Of a stretch of DNA of 64,000 bases, positions 1 to 49,477 are shown one piece after another (the first letter of the stretch is position 1; each line of letters begins with the position of its first letter). The notes under the pieces are model-generated. The model did no database searches. It saw nothing but the letters and a program-made list of their open reading frames with translations, and had not been told where the DNA came from. The stretch comes from a virus (Duplodnaviria; Heunggongvirae; Uroviricota; Caudoviricetes). The DNA lies in the IMG/VR virus record IMGVR_UViG_2718217789_000006; one strand, given 5' to 3'. Both the position numbers and the translations under genes were made by a program.

Positions 1-332
1 TGACGGGGACGAAAGAAGAACTGGCGCTCCGTGTGGCAGAGCTGGAAGAGGAGCTTGATGACACGGATGAAACTGCCGGTCAGGACACCCCTCTCAGCCG
101 GGAAAATGTGCTGACCGGACATGAAAATGAGGTGGGATCAGCGCAGCCGGATACCGTGATTCTGGATACGTCTGAACTGGTCACGGTCGTGGCACTGGTG
201 AAGCTGCATACTGATGCACTTCACGTCACGCGGGATGAACCTGTGGCATTTGTGCTGCCGGGAACGGCGTTTCGTGTCTCTGCCGGTGTGGCAGCCGAAA
301 TGACAGAGCGCGGCCTGGCCAGAATGCAATAA
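1..332 (+). CDS. FI: Lambda FI-like DNA packaging protein, C-terminal part (5' end outside window)
   Basis: Reading frame open from the window edge; translation ...VAELEEELDDTDETAGQDTPLSRENVLTGHENEV...MTERGLARMQ matches lambda gpFI C-terminus as recalled; lies directly upstream of FII. Confidence 0.8.
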   Translation, partial: TGTKEELALRVAELEEELDDTDETAGQDTPLSRENVLTGHENEVGSAQPDTVILDTSELVTVVALVKLHTDALHVTRDEPVAFVLPGTAFRVSAGVAAEMTERGLARMQ

Positions 333-343
333 CGGGAGGCGCT

Positions 344-697
344 GTGGCTGATTTCGATAACCTGTTCGATGCTGCCATTGCCCGCGCCGATGAAACGATA
401 CGCGGGTACATGGGAACGTCAGCCACCATGACATCCGGTGAGCGGTCCGGCGCAGTAATACGTGGTGTTTTTGATGACCCTGAAAATATCAGCTATGCCG
501 GACAGGGCGTGCGCGTTGAAGGCTCCAGCCCGTCCCTGTTTGTCCGGACTGATGATGTGCGGCAACTGCGGCGTGGTGACACGCTGACCATTAACGGCGA
601 GATGTTCTGGGTGGACCGTGTTTCTCCGGATGACGGAGGGAGTTGTTATCTCTGGCTCAACCGTGGGCAACCACCGGCAGTTAACCGGCGACGATAA
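344..697 (+). CDS. FII: Head-tail joining protein FII
   Basis: 117 aa, MADFDNLFDAAIARADETIRGYMGTSATMTSGE...SPDDGGSCYLWL, near-identical to lambda gpFII as recalled. Confidence 0.9.
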   Translation: MADFDNLFDAAIARADETIRGYMGTSATMTSGERSGAVIRGVFDDPENISYAGQGVRVEGSSPSLFVRTDDVRQLRRGDTLTINGEMFWVDRVSPDDGGSCYLWLNRGQPPAVNRRR

Positions 698-711
698 ACG
701 CAGGGTGAATT

Positions 712-1245
712 ATGGCGATAAAAGGGCTTGATCAGGCGATTGAAAATCTGAGCCGGGTTCGTAAAAACGCCATTCCGGCGGCTTCAGCAATGGCCATTAA
801 CCGCGTGGCCACAACGGCGATTAATCAGTCTTCATCACAGGTTGCCCGGGAGACAAAGGTACGCCGGAAACTGGTAAAGGAACGGTCCAGACTGAAACGG
901 GCCACGGTCAGAAATCCGAATGCCAGAATTATCGTTAAACGCGGTGATCTCCCTGTGATTAAGCTGGGGATCAGGATGCTGGGCCGTCGTCCGGACAGCA
1001 TACTTAAAGCTGGTCAGCATCGGTATCAGCGGGCATTTATCCAGCGATTAAAAAATGGTCGCTGGCATGTCATGCAGCGTGTGGCCGGGAAAAACCGTTA
1101 CCCCATTGATGTGGTGAAAATCCCGATGGCGGCCCCACTGAAACAGGCGTTTGATGAGAATATTGACCGTATCCGGCGTGAACGTCTGCCCGGAGAACTG
1201 GCATACGCGCTGAAACAACAACTTAGGATTGCGATAAAACGATGA
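712..1245 (+). CDS. Z: Minor tail protein Z
   Basis: 177 aa, MAIKGLDQAIENLSRV...NGRWHVMQRVAGKNRYPIDVVKIPMA, lambda gpZ-like; lambda gene order. Confidence 0.9.
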   Translation: MAIKGLDQAIENLSRVRKNAIPAASAMAINRVATTAINQSSSQVARETKVRRKLVKERSRLKRATVRNPNARIIVKRGDLPVIKLGIRMLGRRPDSILKAGQHRYQRAFIQRLKNGRWHVMQRVAGKNRYPIDVVKIPMAAPLKQAFDENIDRIRRERLPGELAYALKQQLRIAIKR

Positions 1246-1637
1246 AACATACTGATATCCGTGCGGCAGTGCTGGATGCACTGGAGCTGCATGAACACGG
1301 GGCGACGCTGTTTGATGGTCGCCCCGTTGTTTTTGACGAAGAGGATTTTCCGGCCGTCGCGGTTTATCTGACGGATGCAGAGTATACCGGTGAAGAGCTG
1401 GATGCAGATACCTGGCGGGCCACACTGCATATTGAGGTGTTTTTACCGGCACAGGTACCGGATTCGGAGCTTGATCAGTGGATGGAAAGCCGGATTTATC
1501 CGGCGGTGACTGCGATCCCGGCACTGGCAGACCTGATTACGACGATGGTTACGCAGGGCTATGAGTATCGTCGTGATGACGATATGGCGTTATGGAGTTC
1601 TGCGGATCTGACTTATTCCATTACATACGAGATGTGA
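1242..1637 (+). CDS. U: Minor tail protein U (tail terminator)
   Basis: 131 aa, ...[23 protein letters not shown]...[16 protein letters not shown]..., lambda gpU-like; 4-nt overlap with Z. Confidence 0.9.
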
Positions 1638-1644
1638 GGACGAT

Positions 1645-2397
1645 ATGGCAACACCAAATCCCCTTGAGCCGGTAAAAGGTGCCGGTACCACTCTGTGGGT
1701 TTACAACGGCAAGGGTGATGCTTATGCAAACCCGTTGTCAGACGATGACTGGCAGCGACTGGCTAAGGTGAAGGATCTGACGCCGGGCGAGATGACGGCA
1801 GAACCCTACGATGATAACTACCTGGATGATGAAGACGCGGACTGGACCGCGACCGGGCAGGGGCAGAAGTCTGCAGGAGATACCAGTTTTACGCTGGCCT
1901 GGAAACCGGGAGAAGAAGGTCAGAAAGGGCTTATAGGCTGGTTTGAAAGCGGGGATGTGCGGGCCTATAAAATCCGTTTCCCAAATGGCACGGTGGATGT
2001 GTTCCGTGGCTGGGTCAGCAGTATCGGTAAGGCCGTGACGGCGAAAGAAGTGATCACCCGCACGGTGAAAGTCACTAACGTGGGCAAACCTTCCGTGGCG
2101 GAAGAACGCAGCGAAATTACGCCGGCCACTGCAATTAAGGTGACACCGACATCCGGTACGGTGGCAAAAGGGAAAACAACCACCCTGACTGTTTCTTTTG
2201 AGCCGGAAAGTGCAACCGACAAGACGTTCAGAGCGGTTTCCGCCGATCCGTCGAAAGCCACCATTAGTGTGAAAGATATGACAATTACGGTAAACGGCGT
2301 GGCGACAGGTAAGGTGCAGATCCCTGTGGTGAGCGGAAATGGTCAGTTCGCCGCAGTGGCTGAAGTCACCGTTACTGAAGCGGGCGCTGCAGGGTAA
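1645..2397 (+). CDS. V: Major tail tube protein V
   Basis: 250 aa, ...[39 protein letters not shown]...[25 protein letters not shown]..., lambda gpV-like with C-terminal Ig-like region. Confidence 0.95.
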
Positions 2398-2410
2398 ACG
2401 GAGGTAATAC

Positions 2411-2833
2411 ATGTTTCTGAAAACAGAACAATTTGAATATAACGGTGTGTCCGTCACGCTTTCCGAATTGTCTGCGCTGCAGCGGTTTGATTATATAAAG
2501 TTTGTTTCAGACGCAGAACAACAGGAGACAACGAAGCATGATGTCGTGCACATTAACCAGCGATATCTGGAAACGGCATCCCTGCTTGTGGCGATGTCGC
2601 TATGGCATTCCCATTCCCTCAAAGGCACTCTGGCCTCTCCGGAGACAGAGATGCAGCAGATCCGCCGTGAAGTGATGCTGGGATGGCCTGCTGATGCACT
2701 GAATCAGGCAACGAACCGGGTGCTTTATCTTTCAGGTATGCTGGATAACCGGCACGATGCCGATCCTGAACAAACCGGTAAAGCAGAAGCGACTGAGTCG
2801 GTAACATCAAAAAAGCATTCGAAGGCGAGCTGA
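2411..2833 (+). CDS. G: Tail assembly chaperone G
   Basis: 140 aa, MFLKTEQFEYNGVSVTLSELSALQR..., lambda gpG-like; ends just after a slippery heptamer. Confidence 0.9.
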   Translation: MFLKTEQFEYNGVSVTLSELSALQRFDYIKFVSDAEQQETTKHDVVHINQRYLETASLLVAMSLWHSHSLKGTLASPETEMQQIRREVMLGWPADALNQATNRVLYLSGMLDNRHDADPEQTGKAEATESVTSKKHSKAS

Positions 2834-3273
2834 ACTTTGTCCTGAAACTGGCGCGAGAGATGGGGAGACCCGACTGGCGCGCCATGCTTGCCGGGATGAC
2901 ATCCACCGAATATGCCGACTGGCGACGTTTTTACTGCACGCATTATTTTCAGGATACCCAACTGGACGCTCATTTTTCCGGGCTGATGTACGCCGTACTC
3001 AGCCTGTTTTTTGGCGATCCGGATATGCATCCGGCGGATTTCAGTCTGCTTGCTCCAGCGTGTGAGGAAGAGCAGACGGAGATGCCGGACGAGGAAGAAA
3101 TGCTGATGCAGAAAGCGACAGGAGTTGCCGGAGGCGTCCGGTTCGGAGGGGACGGAGGGCGCGATATTTCACCTTCTGCGGATGTGGTGGATGTCAGCGA
3201 GGATGATGTTGCATTAATGATGGCTTCAGCGGGGATTTCCGGAGGTGTGAGATATGTCCCAGCCAGCGGGTGA
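2411..3273 (+). CDS. T: Tail assembly protein G-T, product of programmed -1 ribosomal frameshift
   Basis: T frame (ending 3273) is the -1 frame relative to G and is open upstream of its first ATG through the heptamer A_AAA_AAG at 2809..2815; -1 reading gives ...KKAFEGELNFVLKLAREMGRPDWRAMLAGMTSTEYADWRRFY... Confidence 0.75.
2809..2815 (+). promoter_or_regulatory. Slippery heptamer A_AAA_AAG for the G to G-T -1 frameshift
   Basis: In-frame X_XXY_YYZ motif in the G reading frame at the G/T overlap; lambda uses G_GGA_AAG at the same position. Confidence 0.7.
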
Positions 3274-5866
3274 TCTGGTTATTGATTTGAGTCTGGATGC
3301 GGCCCGGTTTGATGAACAGATGGCCCGGGTACGCCGTCATTTTTCCAGTCTGGAGGCGGATGCCAGAAAAACCGCCAGTACTGTTGAACAGGGGCTGAGC
3401 CGACAGGCGCTGGCGGCACAAAAAGCCGGGATATCAGTCGGACAGTATAAGGCTGCCATGCGCACACTGCCCGCACAGTTCACGGATATTGTCACTCAGC
3501 TTGCCGGTGGTCAGAATCCCTTCCTTATCATGCTGCAGCAGGGGGGGCAGATCAGCGATTCATTCGGTGGACCGCTCAGCCTGCTTACCCTGCTGAAGGA
3601 GGAACTTCTCGGGATCAGGGATGCCTCTGAATCATCAGAGGAGTCGCTGTCAGATACGGCAAATGCACTGGCTGAAAATGCCCGGAATGCCGGTGAGCTG
3701 GGACGATTTATGTCGGTGGCCCGTGTGGCGGCAGGTGGCGGGGTTGCCGTACTGGCCGCGCTTGCTGCCGCCGCCTGGCAGGCAGAGCAGGCTGACCGGG
3801 CCTTATTGCGTTCACTGATCCTGACCGGAGGGGCGGCTGCCACCACAACGGCAGAATTGTGGAAAATGGCCGGGGTGATCAGCGATGAAGCCGGTGGTGG
3901 TATCAGACAGGCGGCAGAAAATCTGGCCCGTCTGGCAGAAAGCGGGAAATATACCGCCGGGCAGCTACGGATCATGGGGGAAACCTCTCAGAGATGGCTG
4001 CAGACGGTGGGGGACGATGCCGGGAAGGTGGAAAAAGCCTTTGAAGGGATTGCAGCAGATCTGGTGAAGGCGCTGGCCTCCCTGAATCAGCAGTATAACT
4101 TCCTGAGCGTTTCCCAGTTACGCCATATTGATGAGCTTGAGCGCACGAAAGGTAAACAGGTTGCGGTGACGGAGGCGATGTCCCTGTTTGCGGATGTCAT
4201 GAATGCACGTCTGGAGCAACTTGATAAAGCGGCCACGCCGGTGGAAAAAATCTGGGACGATGTTAAAACCTGGACTTCTGACGCATGGGCATGGATAGGT
4301 GATCATACACTGGGGGCACTCAGTCTGATCACTGACGTGGTGGCCGGAACCGTTGAACAAGTGAAGCTGCTGCTTGTGCAGGGGGATCTGGCGCTGGCTG
4401 AATTTATTCAGTCAGCCTGGGAAACGACAAAGAATGTGCCCGGCGTTGGTGCGTTGTTTGGTGAACTGGCAGAAGAGAACCGCGTATTTATTGAGAAAAC
4501 AAAACGCGATGAACTGGCGCTGAGAAAATCCATTGCGGAACGGGATGCGCGTATACGCCAGGGGGAAATGGGGTACATCAACCGCTCGCGTGCAACAGGC
4601 GTCAGCAAAGGTCCGGGGCAGCAGGAAGCCGTCAGCCGTCTGGCTGAAGAGCTGACAGGTAAAAAGCATACATCACCGAAAACGCGCTCTGCCGGGGAGA
4701 GGGAAGAGGAGCAGGCAAGAGAGGCTCTGCTTGCCCTTGAAGCTGAGCTCAGGACGCTGGAAAAACACAGCGGTGCGAATGAGAAAATCAGCCGGCAGCG
4801 CCGTGATTTATGGAAGGCGGAAAGTCAGTATGCGGTCCTGAAAGAGGCTGCCACGAAACGACAGTTATCTGAGCAGGAAAAATCCCTGCTGGCGCATAAA
4901 GACGAGACGCTGGAGTACAAACGCCAGCTGGCTGAGCTGGGCGACAAGGTTGAATACCAGAAACGCCTGAATGAGCTGGCACAGCAGGCGGTGCGGTTTG
5001 AAGAGCAGCAGAGCGCGAAGCAGGCCGCCATCAGCGCAAAAGCCCGCGGTCTCACTGACCGTCAGGCGCAGCGGGAGTCTGAAGCGCAGCGTCTTCGGGA
5101 CGTGTACGGTGATAATCCGGCTGCGCTGGCGAAGGCCACATCGGCACTGAAGAACACCAGGTCTGCGGAGGAGCAGCTTCGTGGAAGCTGGATGGCCGGG
5201 CTGAAGTCCGGCTGGGGCGAGTGGGCGGAAAGTGCGACGGACAGTTTTTCGCAGGTTAAAAGTGCTGCCACGCAGACCTTTGACGGTATTGCACAGAATA
5301 TGGCGGCGATGCTGACCGGTGCAGAGGCAGACTGGCGGGGATTCACCCGTTCGGTGCTGTCCATGATGACAGAAATCCTGCTTAAACAGGCCATGGTGGG
5401 CATTGTCGGGCGTATCGGCAGCGCCATTGGCGGTGCTTTCGGTGGTGGTGCATCTGCTTCCTCGGGGACGGCCATTCAGGCTGCGGCGGCGAACTTCCAT
5501 TTCGCGACCGGAGGATTTACGGGGACGGGCGGCAAATATGAGCCTGCGGGGATAGTTCACCGCGGGGAGTTTGTTTTCACGAAAGAGGCAACCAGCCGGA
5601 TAGGTGTGGGGAATCTTTACCGTCTGATGCGCGGCTATGCGGAAGGTGGTTATGTGGGTGGTGCCGGAAGTCCGGCGCAGATGCGGCGGGCGGAAGGTAT
5701 TAATTTTAATCAGAACAATCACGTGGTGATTCAGAACGACGGCACCAACGGACAGGCGGGGCCGCAGCTGATGAAGGCGGTGTATGACATGGCCCGCAAG
5801 GGGGCGCAGGATGAGCTCCGGCTGCAGTTGCGTGATGGCGGTATGTTATCGGGGAGCGGGCGATGA
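3254..5866 (+). CDS. H: Tail tape measure protein H
   Basis: 870 aa; N- and C-terminal regions (…LSRQALAAQKAGISVGQYKAAMRTLPAQFTD…; …AMVGIVGRIGSAIGG…HFATGGFTGTGGKYEPAGIVHRGEFVFTKEATSRIG…) match lambda gpH as recalled; GGAGG RBS; overlaps end of T. Confidence 0.9.
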   Translation: MSQPAGDLVIDLSLDAARFDEQMARVRRHFSSLEADARKTASTVEQGLSRQALAAQKAGISVGQYKAAMRTLPAQFTDIVTQLAGGQNPFLIMLQQGGQISDSFGGPLSLLTLLKEELLGIRDASESSEESLSDTANALAENARNAGELGRFMSVARVAAGGGVAVLAALAAAAWQAEQADRALLRSLILTGGAAATTTAELWKMAGVISDEAGGGIRQAAENLARLAESGKYTAGQLRIMGETSQRWLQTVGDDAGKVEKAFEGIAADLVKALASLNQQYNFLSVSQLRHIDELERTKGKQVAVTEAMSLFADVMNARLEQLDKAATPVEKIWDDVKTWTSDAWAWIGDHTLGALSLITDVVAGTVEQVKLLLVQGDLALAEFIQSAWETTKNVPGVGALFGELAEENRVFIEKTKRDELALRKSIAERDARIRQGEMGYINRSRATGVSKGPGQQEAVSRLAEELTGKKHTSPKTRSAGEREEEQAREALLALEAELRTLEKHSGANEKISRQRRDLWKAESQYAVLKEAATKRQLSEQEKSLLAHKDETLEYKRQLAELGDKVEYQKRLNELAQQAVRFEEQQSAKQAAISAKARGLTDRQAQRESEAQRLRDVYGDNPAALAKATSALKNTRSAEEQLRGSWMAGLKSGWGEWAESATDSFSQVKSAATQTFDGIAQNMAAMLTGAEADWRGFTRSVLSMMTEILLKQAMVGIVGRIGSAIGGAFGGGASASSGTAIQAAAANFHFATGGFTGTGGKYEPAGIVHRGEFVFTKEATSRIGVGNLYRLMRGYAEGGYVGGAGSPAQMRRAEGINFNQNNHVVIQNDGTNGQAGPQLMKAVYDMARKGAQDELRLQLRDGGMLSGSGR

Positions 5867-6192
5867 AAACCTTTCGCTGGAAAGTGAAGCCGGATATGGA
5901 GGTGAACTCGCAGCCATCGGTGCGTGAAGTGCGTTTTGGTGACGGGTACTCACAGCGTATGGCGGCAGGGCTGAATGCTGACCTGAAAACATACCGTGTG
6001 ACGCTTTCCGTGACCCGGGAGGAGGCCCGGCATCTGGAAGCGTTCCTGGCAGAGCACGGAGGCTGGAAGGCATTTTTGTGGAAGCCACCCTATGCATACC
6101 GGCAGATAAAGGTGACCTGTGCCGGGTGGTCTGCGCGGGTCGGGATGTTGCGCGTTGAGTTCAGCGCGGAGTTTAAGCAGGTGGTGAACTGA
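5863..6192 (+). CDS. M: Minor tail protein M
   Basis: 109 aa, MKTFRWKVKP...YRVTLSV...KVTCAGWSARVGMLRVEFSAEFKQVVN, lambda gpM-like. Confidence 0.9.
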   Translation: MKTFRWKVKPDMEVNSQPSVREVRFGDGYSQRMAAGLNADLKTYRVTLSVTREEARHLEAFLAEHGGWKAFLWKPPYAYRQIKVTCAGWSARVGMLRVEFSAEFKQVVN

Positions 6193-6890
6193 TGCAGGAT
6201 ATTCACGGGGAAAGCCTGATCGAGTCGGTTAAATCAGAGCAGTCACCGCGGGTGGTGCTCTGGGAAATCGACCTGACGGTGCAGGGTGGTGAGCGGTATT
6301 TTTTCTGCAATGAGCTGAATGAAAAAGGGGAGGCGGTTACCTGGCAGGGGCGGGAATATCAGGCATACCCGATTGACGGCAGCGGTTTTGAGATGAACGG
6401 GAAGGGCAGCAGTGCCCGCCCGTCGCTGACGGTGTCGAATCTGTTCGGTCTGGTCACCGGAATGGCGGAGGACCTGCAGAGCCTGGTGGGGGCCACGGTG
6501 GTCCGCCGCCGGGTGTATGCCCGTTTTCTGGATGCGGTGAATTTTGTGGCGGGCAATCCGGAAGCGGACCCGGAGCAGGAGCTGAGCGACCGCTGGGTGG
6601 TGGAGCAGATGTCAGAGCTGACGGCCATGACAGCCTCGTTTGTGCTGGCAACACCGACGGAGACGGACGGAGCGCTGTTTCCCGGTCGCATTATGCTGGC
6701 GAATACCTGTATGTGGGATTACCGGGGAGATGAATGCGGGTATAACGGTCCTGCGGTGGCGGATGAGTTCGACAACCCCACCACGGATATCCGTAAGGAC
6801 AGATGCAGCAAGTGCATGCGCGGGTGTGAGATGCGCGGCATGGTGGCTAATTTTGGCGGTTTCCTTTCCATCAATAAACTTTCGCAGTAA
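6192..6890 (+). CDS. L: Minor tail protein L
   Basis: 232 aa, ...VVLWEIDLT...GERYFFCNE...FPGRIMLANTCMWDYRGDECGY...FGGFLSINKLSQ, lambda gpL-like. Confidence 0.9.
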   Translation: MQDIHGESLIESVKSEQSPRVVLWEIDLTVQGGERYFFCNELNEKGEAVTWQGREYQAYPIDGSGFEMNGKGSSARPSLTVSNLFGLVTGMAEDLQSLVGATVVRRRVYARFLDAVNFVAGNPEADPEQELSDRWVVEQMSELTAMTASFVLATPTETDGALFPGRIMLANTCMWDYRGDECGYNGPAVADEFDNPTTDIRKDRCSKCMRGCEMRGMVANFGGFLSINKLSQ

Positions 6891-6900
6891 ATCCTGTTTT

Positions 6901-7644
6901 ATGACACAGACTGAATCAGCGATTCTGGTGCATGCCCGGCGGTGTGCGCCTGCGGAGTCGTGCGGCTTCGTGATAGGCACCCCGGAGGGCGAACGGTACC
7001 AGCCCTGCGTGAATATCTCCGCAGAGCCGGAGGCGTATTTTCGTATTGCGCCGGAAGACTGGCTGCAGGCAGAGATGCAGGGGGAGATTGTGGCGCTGGT
7101 TCACAGCCACCCTGGTGGTCTGCCCTGGCTGAGCGAGGCCGACCGGCGGCTGCAGATAAAGAGTGCCCTGCCCTGGTGGCTGGTCTGCCGGGGGGAAATT
7201 CATAAATTCCGCTGTGTGCCGCACCTGACCGGGCGTCGTTTTGAGCACGGGGTGACGGACTGTTACACCCTGTTCCGGGATGCATACCATCTGGCGGGGA
7301 TAACGCTGCCGGATTTTGAGCGTGAGGATGACTGGTGGCGCAACGGTCAGAACCTTTACCTGGACAATATGGCGGCGACTGGTTTTTACCGGGTGCCCCT
7401 GTCCTCTGCACAGGCGGGCGATATCCTGCTGTGCTGCTTTGGCGCATCGGTGGCCAATCATGCCGCCATATACTGCGGCAACGGTGAACTGCTTCACCAT
7501 CTGCCTGAACAACTGAGTAAACGGGAGAGGTATTCTGAAAAATGGCAACGACGAACGCATTCTGTCTGGCGTCACCGCCACTGGCACGCATCTGCCTTCA
7601 CGGGGATTTGCAACGATTTGGCCGCCGCCTCAGCCTGTACGTGA
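6901..7644 (+). CDS. K: Tail assembly protein K (JAB/MPN plus NlpC/P60-like domains)
   Basis: Starts at ATG 6901 (MTQTESAILVHARRCAPAESCGFV...HSHPGG...); the ORF-track start at 6640 is an upstream in-frame extension overlapping L and is rejected. Confidence 0.9.
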   Translation: MTQTESAILVHARRCAPAESCGFVIGTPEGERYQPCVNISAEPEAYFRIAPEDWLQAEMQGEIVALVHSHPGGLPWLSEADRRLQIKSALPWWLVCRGEIHKFRCVPHLTGRRFEHGVTDCYTLFRDAYHLAGITLPDFEREDDWWRNGQNLYLDNMAATGFYRVPLSSAQAGDILLCCFGASVANHAAIYCGNGELLHHLPEQLSKRERYSEKWQRRTHSVWRHRHWHASAFTGICNDLAAASACT

Positions 7645-8219
7645 ACACGGCAGCGGAAGCCATCCGTGCCCTGTCGCTGCAGATGCCGGGATTCCGCCGT
7701 CAGATGAACGAAGGCTGGTACCAGATACGTATTCGCGGTGAGGACACGGCACCGGAGGCGGTGTACGCCCGTCTTCACGAACCTCTGGGTGAGGGGGCGG
7801 TCATCCATATTGTGCCGCGACTGGCCGGAGCCGGAAAGGGCGGACTGCAGATTGTGCTGGGGGCAGCAGCCATCGTGGGCTCTTTCTTCACCGCCGGCGC
7901 AACGATGGCGTTGTGGGGCGCAGCCCTGAGTGCCGGAGGGCTGACTGCCACCACGATGCTGTTCTCACTGGGTGCCAGCATGATACTGGGCGGTGTGGCC
8001 CAGATGCTGGCACCGAAGGCAAAAACACCGGAGTACAGGGCGACGGATAACGGTAAACAGAACACGTATTTTTCGTCACTGGATAACATGATTGCCCAGG
8101 GGAACCCGATGCCGGTGCCTTATGGTGAAATGCTGGTTGGTTCACGACGGATATCCCAGGACATCAGCACCCGTGATGAGGGCGGAGACGGGAAAGTGGT
8201 GGTTATCGGGCGGGGATGA
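7542..8219 (+). CDS. I: Tail assembly protein I
   Basis: 225 aa, ...ICLHGDLQRFGRR...AVIHIVPRLAGAGKGG...GKQNTYFSSLDNMIAQGNPMPVPYGEM..., lambda gpI-like; overlaps 3' end of K. Confidence 0.85.
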   Translation: MATTNAFCLASPPLARICLHGDLQRFGRRLSLYVNTAAEAIRALSLQMPGFRRQMNEGWYQIRIRGEDTAPEAVYARLHEPLGEGAVIHIVPRLAGAGKGGLQIVLGAAAIVGSFFTAGATMALWGAALSAGGLTATTMLFSLGASMILGGVAQMLAPKAKTPEYRATDNGKQNTYFSSLDNMIAQGNPMPVPYGEMLVGSRRISQDISTRDEGGDGKVVVIGRG

Positions 8220-8264
8220 AAATAAAAAAATCCCGCAGAGTTAGCGGAGCTGCGGGAGAGAACG

Positions 8265-8384
8265 ATGAAGATTAACGTTATGGAGTTATTTTTCAGGCAT
8301 CAAAAAAGTAATGCAGCGTCATTATTGCGGCTACAGGCAATTGCCGGAAATGTGAAGAGTTTCAGAAATTTTATTCCGTCATGA
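8265..8384 (+). CDS. Hypothetical 39-aa protein in an AT-rich insert between I and J
   Basis: ATG with GGGAGAG upstream; MKINVMELFFRHQKSNAASLLRLQAIAGNVKSFRNFIPS; bracketed by two GC-rich hairpins; no homology recognised. Confidence 0.25.
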   Translation: MKINVMELFFRHQKSNAASLLRLQAIAGNVKSFRNFIPS

Positions 8385-8459
8385 CACAGGCACCCTCCGG
8401 GGTGCCTGTTGTTTTCTGGCATAAACAGATTCAGACATCAGACAGGAGAGGGGGACAGA

Positions 8460-27414: not shown

Positions 27415-28101
27415 ATGACCCCAATAAAAATATTTATGACTATTGCTGATTTCAAACGGCCTAAATTGGAGCTCCCAAACGGGGCAAACAAACTACTACT
27501 GCACTCTTGCTGTGCTCCATGTTCCGGTGAAGTGATGGAGGCGCTTCAGGCCTCGGGAATCGACTACACCATCTTTTTCTACAACCCGAACATTCATCCT
27601 CAGAAAGAGTATTTAATTCGTAAGGATGAAAATATTCGCTTTGCTGAACAACACGGCGTGCCGTTTATCGATGCTGATTACGACACCGACAACTGGTTTG
27701 AACGTGCCAAAGGAATGGAATGGGAGCCTGAGAGGGGGATCCGTTGTACCATGTGTTTTGACATGCGTTTTGAGCGGACAGCGTTGTACGCTGCTGAAAA
27801 TGGTTTCAGTGTGATCAGCAGTTCACTGGGCATTTCACGCTGGAAAAATATGCAGCAGGTTAACGAGTGTGGGCGGCGAGCTGTTGCGCATTATCCGGGT
27901 ATGGTGTACTGGGATTATAACTGGCGCAAGCAGGGCGGCTCGTCCCGTATGATTGAAATCAGCAAGCGCGAAAAATTCTATCAGCAGGAATATTGTGGCT
28001 GTGTGTATTCTCTGCGCGATACCAATCTACACCGCAAATCTCAGGGACGCCCTCTTATCAAAATTGGCCAACTCCACTACGGAAAAGAAGAGAAGGAGTG
28101 A
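27415..28101 (+). CDS. QueH-like protein (DUF208, epoxyqueuosine reductase family)
   Basis: 228 aa; [11 protein letters not shown]...FFYNPNIHP...QEYCGCVYS motifs characteristic of QueH/DUF208 as recalled. Confidence 0.55.
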
Positions 28102-48719: not shown

Positions 48720-49142
48720 ATGTTTCTGAAAACAGAACAATTTGAATATAACGGTGTGTCCGTCACGCTTTCCGAATTGTCTGCGCTGCAGCGGTTTGAT
48801 TATATAAAGTTTGTTTCAGACGCAGAACAACAGGAGACAACGAAGCATGATGTCGTGCACATTAACCAGCGATATCTGGAAACGGCATCCCTGCTTGTGG
48901 CGATGTCGCTATGGCATTCCCATTCCCTCAAAGGCACTCTGGCCTCTCCGGAGACAGAGATGCAGCAGATCCGCCGTGAAGTGATGCTGGGATGGCCTGC
49001 TGATGCACTGAATCAGGCAACGAACCGGGTGCTTTATCTTTCAGGTATGCTGGATAACCGGCACGATGCCGATCCTGAACCAACCGGGAAAACAGAAGCG
49101 ACTGAGCCGGTAACATCAAAAAAGCATTCGAAGGCGAGCTGA
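48720..49142 (+). CDS. G: Tail assembly chaperone G
   Basis: 140 aa, near-identical to 2411..2833. Confidence 0.9.
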   Translation: MFLKTEQFEYNGVSVTLSELSALQRFDYIKFVSDAEQQETTKHDVVHINQRYLETASLLVAMSLWHSHSLKGTLASPETEMQQIRREVMLGWPADALNQATNRVLYLSGMLDNRHDADPEPTGKTEATEPVTSKKHSKAS

Positions 49143-49477
49143 ACTTTGTCCTGAAACTGGCGCGTGAGATGGGGAGAGCCGACTGGCGCGCCATGCTTGC
49201 CGGGATGACATCCACCGAATATGCCGACTGGCGACGTTTTTACTGCACGCATTATTTTCAGGATACCCAGCTGGATATGCATTTTTCCGGGCTGATGTAC
49301 GCCGTACTCAGCCTGTTTTTTTGCGATCCGGATATGCATCCGGCGGATTTCAGCCTGTTCGCTCCGGAGGCAGAGGAAGGACAGGCGGAGACGCCGGACG
49401 AAAATGATGTACTGATGCAGAAGGCGGCGGGCCTCGCCGGTGGAGTCCGTTTCGGGGAGGAGGGAAGGAGGTTGTGA
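48720..49477 (+). CDS. T: Tail assembly protein G-T via -1 frameshift at A_AAA_AAG (49118..49124)
   Basis: Same slippery heptamer and frame relationship as copy A; the T C-terminus diverges and is shorter than in copy A. Confidence 0.7.

What the first reader, a model, noticed from the sequence alone, without database searches (positions are those of the whole stretch)
2805..2820. G to G-T frameshift uses A_AAA_AAG rather than lambda's G_GGA_AAG
The T reading frame is in -1 relative to G and is open upstream of its first ATG through an in-frame A_AAA_AAG heptamer (2809..2815; 49118..49124 in copy B). This is the dnaX-type slippery sequence and would be expected to give a different frameshift efficiency than lambda's site.
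Basis: partly seen in the sequence, partly recalled or inferred. Interest (0 to 1): 0.45.

Follow-up and report, generated by a model that had tools for sequence, protein, structure and literature searches.

The report
Prophage tail-chaperone G/GT frameshift site
Two lambda-like prophages in this E. coli O157:H7 stretch carry the well-known ribosomal frameshift that makes the tail-assembly protein GT, using the slippery sequence A_AAA_AAG at exactly the position of lambda's G_GGA_AAG; this is an ordinary variant of a known signal and published measurements rate the two sequences as equally slippery.

Summary
A_AAA_AAG lies at 2809-2815 and at 49118-49124, in phase with gene G (codons AAA AAG). 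It is the only canonical heptamer in the 37-nt G/T overlap. The T frame is -1 and open from 2797.

The site aligns column for column with lambda's proven G_GGA_AAG. G, T, V and H match the lambda Pfam families in lambda order.

The T-frame peptide upstream of the "first ATG" is conserved. That ATG has no Shine-Dalgarno sequence and is replaced by a Phe codon in distant relatives. T is therefore made as a G-T fusion, not on its own.

Across 61 non-redundant relatives AAAG is invariant and only the first three bases vary: GGG, AAA or, most often, GGA.

Sharma et al. 2014 measured AAAAAAG and GGGAAAG as near-equal in three contexts. The dnaX stimulators (upstream SD-like sequence, adjacent stem-loop) are absent.

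A_AAA_AAG tail-chaperone frameshifts are already published for the unrelated HK97-type chaperone of O157 prophages, measured at 6-7%.

Verdict: real, functional in all likelihood, and ordinary. The only practical point is that database annotation splits G and T into separate genes.

The parts
2411..2833 (+). Gene G, copy A: tail assembly chaperone, 140 aa, zero-frame product
   Evidence: ORF. Pfam PF06894 Phage_TAC_2, E = 6e-35. 42% identical to lambda gpG over 140 aa, E = 4e-36.
2809..2815 (+). Slippery heptamer A_AAA_AAG, copy A: site of the -1 ribosomal slip
   Evidence: In phase with G. Orthologous column to lambda G_GGA_AAG. The AAAG part is invariant in 61 non-redundant relatives.
2797..2833 (+). 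G/T overlap, the only stretch where a -1 shift joins G to T
   Evidence: T-frame stop TGA at 2794-2796 and G stop at 2831-2833. It contains one canonical heptamer.
2809..3273 (+). T-frame (-1) part of the predicted GT fusion, copy A: 154 codons from the heptamer, giving a predicted GT of 287 aa
   Evidence: Translation. Pfam PF06223 Phage_tail_T, E = 1e-11. The peptide AFEGELNFVLKLARE upstream of the ATG is conserved with lambda and distant relatives.
2860..2862 (+). First ATG of the T frame, used as the T start in PGAP annotation; most likely an internal Met codon of GT
   Evidence: No SD: best duplex -3.0 kcal/mol, against -5.9 to -13.1 for V, G, H, M and L. The codon is TTT/TTC (Phe) in all 80 G_GAA_AAG relatives of the second scan and in Kluyvera/Atlantibacter.
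2816..2816 (+). Base immediately 3' of the heptamer (C here, U in lambda)
   Evidence: Always a pyrimidine in 61 of 61 non-redundant relatives, C 32 and T 29. Published work shows that the 3' context modulates X_XXA_AAG slipping up to 12.4-fold (Sharma 2014 discussion; Atkins 2016).
2824..2892 (+). Possible long-range stem: arms 2824-2830 GGCGAGC and 2886-2892 GCUUGCC, 8 nt after the heptamer, enclosing an inner GGCGCG/CGCGCC hairpin. Its status is unproven.
   Evidence: MFE fold, z = -2.4. A similar fold forms in lambda, z = -1.6. The outer helix is 95% paired in 61 sequences, with GC 28 and AU 30 at one pair, but 12 G-G mismatches at another pair.
1645..2397 (+). Major tail protein V, copy A (upstream neighbour)
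   Evidence: Pfam PF16461 lambda tail tube protein, E = 1e-68, plus a Big_2 domain.
3254..5866 (+). Tape measure protein H, copy A (downstream neighbour; overlaps the T end)
   Evidence: Pfam PF06791 TMP_2 and PF09718 Tape_meas_lam_C.
48720..49142 (+). Gene G, copy B (second, tandem prophage)
49118..49124 (+). Slippery heptamer A_AAA_AAG, copy B
49118..49477 (+). T-frame part of the predicted GT fusion, copy B: short form, 119 codons, giving a predicted GT of 252 aa
   Evidence: The same short form occurs in VT1-Sakai. PGAP flags it as incomplete.

Best explanation
This is the programmed -1 ribosomal frameshift of the lambda-type tail assembly chaperone genes G and T. It is present once in each of two tandem lambdoid prophages of E. 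coli O157:H7.

Mechanism (inferred by orthology with lambda):
- Most ribosomes translate G to its stop at 2831-2833 and release gpG (140 aa).
- A few per cent slip back one base when tRNA-Lys occupies both the P site (AAA, 2810-2812) and the A site (AAG, 2813-2815). Both tRNAs re-pair with AAA AAA (2809-2814).
- Translation then continues in the T frame to 3273, or to 49477 in copy B. The result is a G-T fusion of 287 aa (252 aa in copy B).
- By analogy with lambda, the G part binds the tape measure protein and the T part recruits the major tail protein.

The A-site A_AAG slip is the conserved core. The P-site triplet is interchangeable within the family (G_GG in lambda, A_AA here, G_GA in most relatives).

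Shown here: sequence, phase, orthology, family membership, T-frame conservation upstream of the ATG, and absence of an independent start signal.

Inferred: that the slip occurs, and that it occurs at a lambda-like low level rather than a dnaX-like 50%.
For: (1) Gene order V-G-T-H, with Pfam matches to the lambda families for all four.

(2) The heptamer is in phase and is the only canonical one in a 37-nt overlap.

(3) It is column-for-column orthologous to lambda's G_GGA_AAG, 22 nt before the G stop. Lambda's site is experimentally established: Levin 1993 as cited in Atkins 2016 and Maynard 2012, about 4% slipping and a 30:1 ratio.

(4) The T-frame peptide between the heptamer and the ATG is conserved: K/G-K-x-x-x-G/S-E-L-x-F-x-L/M-K-L-A-R-E. 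Between the G stop and the ATG, variable columns concentrate at T-frame third positions: 6 of 9, against 2 of 8 and 3 of 9.

(5) The ATG has no SD and is a Phe codon in more than 80 relatives. No ATG, GTG or TTG lies in the T frame between 2797 and 2860.

(6) AAAG is invariant in 61 non-redundant relatives, and the following base is always a pyrimidine.

(7) A_AAA_AAG and G_GGA_AAG measure equally slippery in E. coli (PMC4066793 Table S3).

(8) An A_AAA_AAG tail-chaperone cluster gave 6-7% frameshifting experimentally (PMC3711429). The same swap is seen in the HK97 family: HK97 has G_GAA_AAG and O157 Sp9 ECs1801 has A_AAA_AAG at the aligned position.
Against: There is no direct protein evidence for the GT fusion from these prophages.

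Public annotation (PGAP, GenBank) lists G and T as separate genes.

The prophages may not be inducible or may be partly defective, so the site may currently be unused in this host. Copy B's T is flagged as incomplete by PGAP.

The efficiency is unmeasured in the native context. The 3' base differs from lambda (C against U), and the P-site tRNA differs (Lys against Gly).
Confidence: 0.9

Rival explanations
1. T is a separate gene that starts at the ATG at 2860 (49169 in copy B), as annotated by PGAP. The in-phase heptamer would then be incidental.
For: An ORF of 137 aa starts at 2860. RefSeq and GenBank records annotate it that way.
Against: No SD precedes the ATG: -3.0 kcal/mol, against -5.9 to -13.1 for neighbouring genes.

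The codon is Phe in more than 80 relatives, while the 15 residues upstream of it stay conserved in the T frame.

From my own knowledge of Levin et al. 1993 (not held in the library): in lambda, T is made only as GT.
Confidence: 0.05
2. The frame change is made by RNA polymerase slippage on the A6 run, which would insert one extra A into the mRNA, rather than by the ribosome.
For: The variant has six consecutive A's. Homopolymeric A runs are known sites of transcriptional slippage (Antonov 2013; Atkins 2016).
Against: Published cases need longer runs: 'An, n > 7' (PMC3711429).

The orthologous sites in relatives have only three or four A's (GGGAAAG, GGAAAAG) and keep the same function and position.

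The invariant feature is A_AAG in a fixed phase, which matters for ribosomes and not for RNA polymerase.
Confidence: 0.03
3. The site works as a dnaX-like high-efficiency signal (tens of per cent), giving a G:GT ratio very different from lambda's.
For: The heptamer is identical to that of dnaX. A long-range stem can be drawn 8 nt downstream.
Against: No upstream SD-like element.

No compact stem-loop in the 60 nt after the site: -10.3 kcal/mol scattered pairs, against -19.1 for the dnaX hairpin in a sequence I supplied from memory.

No Rfam frameshift element.

The same downstream sequence occurs in lambda, which shifts at about 4%.

The heptamers are intrinsically equal.

An excess of GT harms lambda production (Maynard 2012).
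Confidence: 0.05

Closest known systems
Bacteriophage lambda G/GT programmed -1 frameshift (G_GGA_AAG; Levin, Hendrix & Casjens 1993; Xu, Hendrix & Duda 2004, 2013, 2014)
   Same: Homologous G (42% identity) and T proteins and the same V-G-T-H gene order. The slip site is in the same alignment column, 22 nt before the G stop. The A-site A_AAG is the same, as is the downstream T-frame sequence (ELxFxLKLAREMGRPDWRAMLAGM).
   Different: The P-site triplet is A_AA (tRNA-Lys) instead of G_GG (tRNA-Gly). The junction dipeptide is Lys-Lys instead of Gly-Lys. The base after the heptamer is C instead of U. The GTG that lambda's record uses as the nominal T start is GCA here.
HK97-type tail assembly chaperone frameshift in O157 prophage Sp9 (ECs1801; cluster A_AAA_AAG_25 of Sharma et al. 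2014; GeneTack cluster #10 of Antonov et al. 2013, measured 6-7%)
   Same: Same host lineage, same heptamer A_AAA_AAG, same functional slot (between the major tail and tape measure genes), and a longer -1 product.
   Different: The chaperone protein is not detectably homologous to the window's G (BLASTP E = 0.99). The heptamer there abuts the stop codon directly.
G_GAA_AAG sites of the same gpG/T family (Kluyvera, Atlantibacter and many IMG/VR contigs; annotated as 'minus-one programmed translational frameshift site GGAAAAG' in phage LLS, PQ299149) and of HK97 itself
   Same: Orthologous position, invariant AAAG, a pyrimidine after it, and the same T-frame continuation.
   Different: The P-site codon is GAA (tRNA-Glu re-pairing to GGA with a G-U in the middle position). 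This is not a canonical X_XXY_YYZ heptamer.
E. coli dnaX tau/gamma frameshift signal
   Same: Identical heptamer A_AAA_AAG, decoded by tRNA-Lys(mnm5s2UUU) in both sites.
   Different: No upstream SD-like stimulator, no adjacent stable stem-loop and no Rfam match. The product is extended rather than truncated. The expected efficiency is a few per cent, not about 50%.

Membership tests
Lambda-type G/GT tail assembly chaperone frameshift | Upstream ORF is a gpG-family chaperone | tested here: met
   PF06894, E = 6e-35. 42% identity to lambda gpG.
Lambda-type G/GT tail assembly chaperone frameshift | Downstream -1 ORF is a gpT-family domain overlapping the 3' end of G | tested here: met
   PF06223, E = 1e-11. 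-1 frame with a 37-nt overlap.
Lambda-type G/GT tail assembly chaperone frameshift | Located between the major tail protein gene and the tape measure gene | tested here: met
   V at 1645-2397 and H at 3254-5866. The order is the same in copy B.
Lambda-type G/GT tail assembly chaperone frameshift | In-phase slippery sequence inside the overlap, conserved in position among relatives | tested here: met
   A_AAA_AAG at 2809-2815. Same column as lambda's site. AAAG invariant in 61 sequences.
Lambda-type G/GT tail assembly chaperone frameshift | T-frame sequence upstream of any start codon is under protein-coding constraint (T has no start of its own) | tested here: met
   Conserved peptide upstream of the ATG, ATG replaced by Phe in relatives, no SD.
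Lambda-type G/GT tail assembly chaperone frameshift | A GT fusion protein is actually produced at a low, fixed ratio to G (about 1:30 in lambda) | not testable with these tools
   Needs expression with immunoblot or mass spectrometry, or a reporter assay.
dnaX-type frameshift signal | A_AAA_AAG heptamer in phase | tested here: met
dnaX-type frameshift signal | Internal Shine-Dalgarno-like stimulator about 10 nt upstream | tested here: not met
   Best anti-SD duplex in the 25 nt upstream is -3.6 kcal/mol, against -7.4 for a dnaX sequence I supplied from memory.
dnaX-type frameshift signal | Stable stem-loop starting about 5-6 nt downstream | tested here: not met
   No compact hairpin in the first 60 nt. 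There is only a long-range 7-bp stem at +8 nt enclosing 55 nt, of uncertain significance. No Rfam hit.
dnaX-type frameshift signal | The frameshift product is a truncated protein made at about 50% | tested here: not met
   The -1 frame stays open for 154 codons, so the product is longer. The efficiency itself is not testable here.
Programmed transcriptional slippage | Homopolymer run long enough for RNA polymerase realignment (published cases have more than 7 A's) | tested here: not met
   The run is A6. Orthologous sites have A3 or A4. The threshold is quoted from PMC3711429.

The most novel reading that the evidence does not exclude
The gpG/T family shares an unrecognised stimulatory context, and this context rather than the heptamer sets the G:GT ratio. 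It would consist of an obligatory pyrimidine after AAG plus a conserved long-range stem 8 nt downstream (2824-2830 pairing with 2886-2892, with GC/AU covariation at its closing pair).

This would explain how heptamers that give about 0.3% slipping on their own reach about 4% in phage. It would also explain why the P-site triplet can drift freely among GGG, AAA and GGA.
Probability: 0.15. Interest if true: 0.35.

Novelty: new member of a known kind. Interest (0 to 1): 0.12.

Why it matters
It matters mainly for annotation. In this locus and in the close-relative phage records I inspected, G and T are listed as two separate genes. Sequences at least 99% identical occur in more than 500 complete E. 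coli genomes. In one copy T is even flagged as a pseudogene. The real products are almost certainly gpG and a G-T fusion.

Biologically it adds one small point. Within one chaperone family the P-site half of the slippery heptamer is interchangeable (GGG, AAA, GGA), while A_AAG plus a following pyrimidine is fixed.

It does not change the understanding of frameshifting or of tail assembly.

Tried and rejected
- I first took the published cluster A_AAA_AAG_25 (ECs1801) of Sharma 2014 to be this very gene. Fetching Sakai Sp9 showed it is an HK97-type chaperone with no detectable similarity to the window's G. It is therefore a parallel case, not the same one.
- dnaX-like stimulators: the upstream SD scan and the local downstream folding were negative, and Rfam was negative.
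- Downstream structure: RNAalifold plus pair counting on 12 and then 61 sequences gave a well-paired outer stem. Its covariation is essentially one GC/AU split that may be a single evolutionary event. One clade has a G-G mismatch, and the arms encode conserved residues (GEL, MLAG). I left this as inconclusive.
- Xu, Hendrix & Duda 2013 (PMC3762263) is not held in the library. I did not try to fetch Xu 2004 or Levin 1993. I therefore could not check whether their tables list this exact variant.
- The first matching genome, NZ_CP030767.1, turned out to carry copy A next to the trp operon rather than next to a second prophage. The true source context was found in strain Z570.
- Many GTDB hits in unrelated organisms (Bacillus-like, Pseudomonas, Shewanella and others) carry a G protein 100% identical to lambda's, on contigs whose names show very low coverage. 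I take them to be lambda DNA contamination and did not count them as independent evidence.

Full report
**What is in the sequence**

The G-frame reading around the finding is ...GTA ACA TCA AAA AAG CAT TCG AAG GCG AGC TGA. Gene G runs 2411-2833 and encodes 140 aa. The heptamer AAAAAAG occupies 2809-2815, with G codons AAA at 2810-2812 and AAG at 2813-2815. That is the X_XXY_YYZ phase needed for a tandem -1 slip.

The -1 frame carries a TGA at 2794-2796 and is then open to 3273. Its first ATG is at 2860. The stretch where a -1 shift can join G to T is therefore only 37 nt (2797-2833). Of its ten in-phase heptamer positions, only this one is canonical.

Copy B is the same: G 48720-49142, heptamer 49118-49124, T frame open 49106-49477.

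AAAAAAG occurs 30 times on both strands of the window, against 11.4 expected. Even at that rate, a chance hit among ten in-phase positions has an expectation of about 0.002.

**What the genes are**

Pfam assigns the four consecutive ORFs as follows:
- lambda tail tube protein V (PF16461, E = 1e-68);
- tail assembly chaperone G (PF06894, E = 6e-35);
- minor tail protein T (PF06223, E = 1e-11);
- lambda-type tape measure protein (PF06791, PF09718).

G is 42% identical to lambda gpG over its full length.

The first 50 kb of the window differs by one base from E. coli O157:H7 strain Z570 (NZ_CP062771.1, 2661320-2711319). The layout there is the tail end of one lambdoid prophage, then an integrase at 16861-18156, then a second complete lambdoid prophage. 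Copies A and B therefore belong to two tandem prophages.

The G-T segment is at least 99% identical in 514 E. coli genome records and 99.5-99.7% identical in Stx1a-converting phages.

**Orthology with lambda's proven site**

In a DNA alignment of both copies, lambda and VT1-Sakai, the heptamer falls in the same columns as lambda's GGGAAAG. The G stop lies 22 nt after the start of the heptamer in every case.

After the slip, the T frame reads KKAFEGELNFVLKLAREMGRPDW here and GKVFDGELSFALKLAREMGRPDW in lambda.

Lambda's site is experimentally established. It gives about 4% slipping and a G:GT ratio near 30:1 that matters for tail assembly (Atkins 2016, PMC5009743; Maynard 2012, PMC3296357).

**Is T made on its own?**

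Four observations argue that it is not.
- The ATG at 2860 has no Shine-Dalgarno sequence. Its best duplex is -3.0 kcal/mol, against -5.9 to -13.1 for V, G, H, M and L.
- No ATG, GTG or TTG lies in the T frame between 2797 and 2860.
- The fifteen T-frame residues upstream of the ATG are conserved across the family. Between the G stop and the ATG, substitutions concentrate at T-frame third positions: 6 of 9, against 2 of 8 and 3 of 9.
- In Kluyvera and Atlantibacter prophages, and in all 80 loci of a second IMG/VR scan, the Met codon is Phe (LAREF...). The upstream peptide is still kept in those sequences.

The database annotation of T as a separate gene is therefore an annotation convention, not evidence.

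**Family survey of the slip site**

From GTDB and IMG/VR loci found with G, 37 loci carry A_AAA_AAG. These are the O157-type G plus one G that is 53% identical to lambda's. About 60 loci carry G_GGA_AAG; many carry a G protein 100% identical to lambda's, on low-coverage contigs of unrelated organisms' assemblies, and I take those to be lambda contamination. The Kluyvera and Atlantibacter prophages carry G_GAA_AAG.

A second scan seeded with divergent T sequences returned 80 loci, and all 80 have G_GAA_AAG.

In 61 non-redundant sequences, AAAG is invariant. The first three bases are GGA in 53, AAA in 4 and GGG in 4 (the sample was seeded with divergent T, so these are not population frequencies). 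The base after the heptamer is always a pyrimidine, C in 32 and T in 29.

The conserved core is thus the A-site A_AAG slip plus a 3' pyrimidine, and the P-site triplet is free to change.

The same swap occurs in the unrelated HK97-type chaperone family. HK97 has G_GAA_AAG, and its 63%-identical O157 Sp9 homologue ECs1801 has A_AAA_AAG at the aligned position. GGAAAAG is explicitly annotated as a -1 frameshift site in phage LLS.

Sharma et al. 2014 (PMC4066793, Table S3) measured all 64 heptamers in E. coli.

| Heptamer | No stimulator | IS911 stimulators | IS3 pseudoknot |
|---|---|---|---|
| AAAAAAG | 0.291% | 4.255% | 39.0% |
| GGGAAAG | 0.277% | 3.801% | 43.0% |

The two are equal within about 10% in every context. 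The same paper notes that the 3' context can raise V_VVA_AAG motifs up to 12.4-fold, to 3.7%. That is the range of lambda's native value.

Antonov et al. 2013 (PMC3711429) measured 6-7% for two genes of the HK97-like chaperone cluster. Sharma 2014 lists that cluster as A_AAA_AAG_25 / GeneTack #10.

The high efficiency of dnaX comes from its flanking stimulators, and these are missing here:
- The best upstream anti-SD duplex is -3.6 kcal/mol, against -7.4 for a dnaX sequence I supplied from memory.
- The first 60 nt downstream hold no compact hairpin: -10.3 kcal/mol of scattered pairs, against -19.1 for the dnaX hairpin in the same memory-supplied sequence.
- Rfam finds nothing relevant.

The expected outcome is a lambda-like few per cent. 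One real difference is that both slipping tRNAs are tRNA-Lys here, whereas lambda uses Gly and Lys. The site may therefore depend more strongly on the mnm5s2U34 modification state that Maynard 2012 showed to modulate lambda's G:GT ratio. This last point is my inference and is untested.

**Downstream structure**

The 100 nt after the heptamer fold with a 7-bp outer stem (2824-2830 with 2886-2892). It starts 8 nt after the site and encloses a GGCGCG/CGCGCC hairpin (z = -2.4). Lambda folds similarly (z = -1.6).

On 61 sequences the outer stem is 95% paired, and its closing pair is GC in 28 and AU in 30. However, that split may be one evolutionary event. Another pair is G-G in 12 sequences. The arms also encode conserved residues. 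I regard the stem as unproven.

**Rivals**

- Independent initiation of T: about 0.05, for the reasons given above.
- Transcriptional slippage: about 0.03. The run is only A6, published cases need more than 7, and the orthologous sites have A3 or A4.
- A dnaX-like high-efficiency signal: about 0.05. The stimulators are absent, the same downstream sequence occurs in lambda, and excess GT harms phage production.

**Novelty**

The G/GT frameshift is textbook knowledge, and A_AAA_AAG is the commonest bacterial -1 heptamer. A_AAA_AAG chaperone frameshifts in O157 prophages are already published and measured, though in the non-homologous HK97-type chaperone.

I found no paper or record that annotates the A_AAA_AAG site in this lambda-type G. 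The key tail-chaperone papers (Xu 2004, Xu 2013, Levin 1993) were not available to me (a look-up of Xu 2013 failed).

I file it as a new member of a known kind, with low interest.

Noticed in passing
window 1-64000 (integrase at 16861-18156; tail modules at 1-14165 and from 46912): The window is E. coli O157:H7 chromosome carrying two lambdoid prophages in tandem. The first 50 kb differs by one base from strain Z570, NZ_CP062771.1 2661320-2711319. Their V and G genes are nearly identical, but their T ends and H genes differ.
   Followed up: partly
window 49169-49477 (copy B T) compared with 2860-3273 (copy A T): Copy B's T is 35 codons shorter, and PGAP flags it as 'incomplete, missing C-terminus'. 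The short form ends just after the first GGVR[FY]G motif. It is shared by VT1-Sakai and by Kluyvera/Atlantibacter homologues. The long forms (copy A, lambda) carry a second GGVRY motif. The short form therefore looks like a natural variant rather than a pseudogene.
   Followed up: partly
L121-L200 position 701-707; L021-L026; HK97 L118 535-541: Most relatives found in these scans use G_GAA_AAG at the orthologous site (80 of 80 loci in the second scan). It is not a canonical X_XXY_YYZ heptamer, because P-site tRNA-Glu must re-pair GAA to GGA. HK97 uses the same letters, and phage LLS annotates them as the frameshift site.
   Followed up: partly
window 2816, and column 22 of alignment A5: The base directly 3' of the heptamer is a pyrimidine in 61 of 61 non-redundant family members. 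This fits published 3'-context effects on X_XXA_AAG slipping.
   Followed up: partly
window 2824-2830 pairing with 2886-2892: A possible conserved long-range stem lies 8 nt downstream of the slip site. Its closing pair is GC in 28 and AU in 30 of 61 sequences. This is confounded by coding constraint and possibly by a single evolutionary event.
   Followed up: partly
window 28286-30296: The second prophage carries a DNA cytosine methyltransferase followed by an NgoMIV-family type II restriction endonuclease, that is, a restriction-modification pair as cargo. A QueH-like epoxyqueuosine reductase lies just upstream at 27436-28101 (annotation of the near-identical record).
   Followed up: no
window 14279-16279: Three consecutive DUF1076 (NleG-like effector) genes sit at the right end of the first prophage, followed by a DinI-like gene at 16441-16683 on the minus strand.
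   Followed up: no
L006-L018, L024, L028-L033 (GTDB contigs): A G gene whose protein is 100% identical to lambda's turns up on contigs, many short and with very low coverage in their names, in assemblies of unrelated organisms (Neobacillus, Shewanella, Kitasatospora, Paenibacillus and others). This is almost certainly lambda DNA contamination of sequencing libraries.
   Followed up: no
window 6901-7644: In strain 2017C-4109 the homologous C40-family peptidase (lambda K-like) gene is marked as a pseudogene with an internal stop, whereas in Z570 it is intact. The mechanical ORF list for the window shows a long ORF from 6640 in that frame.
   Followed up: no
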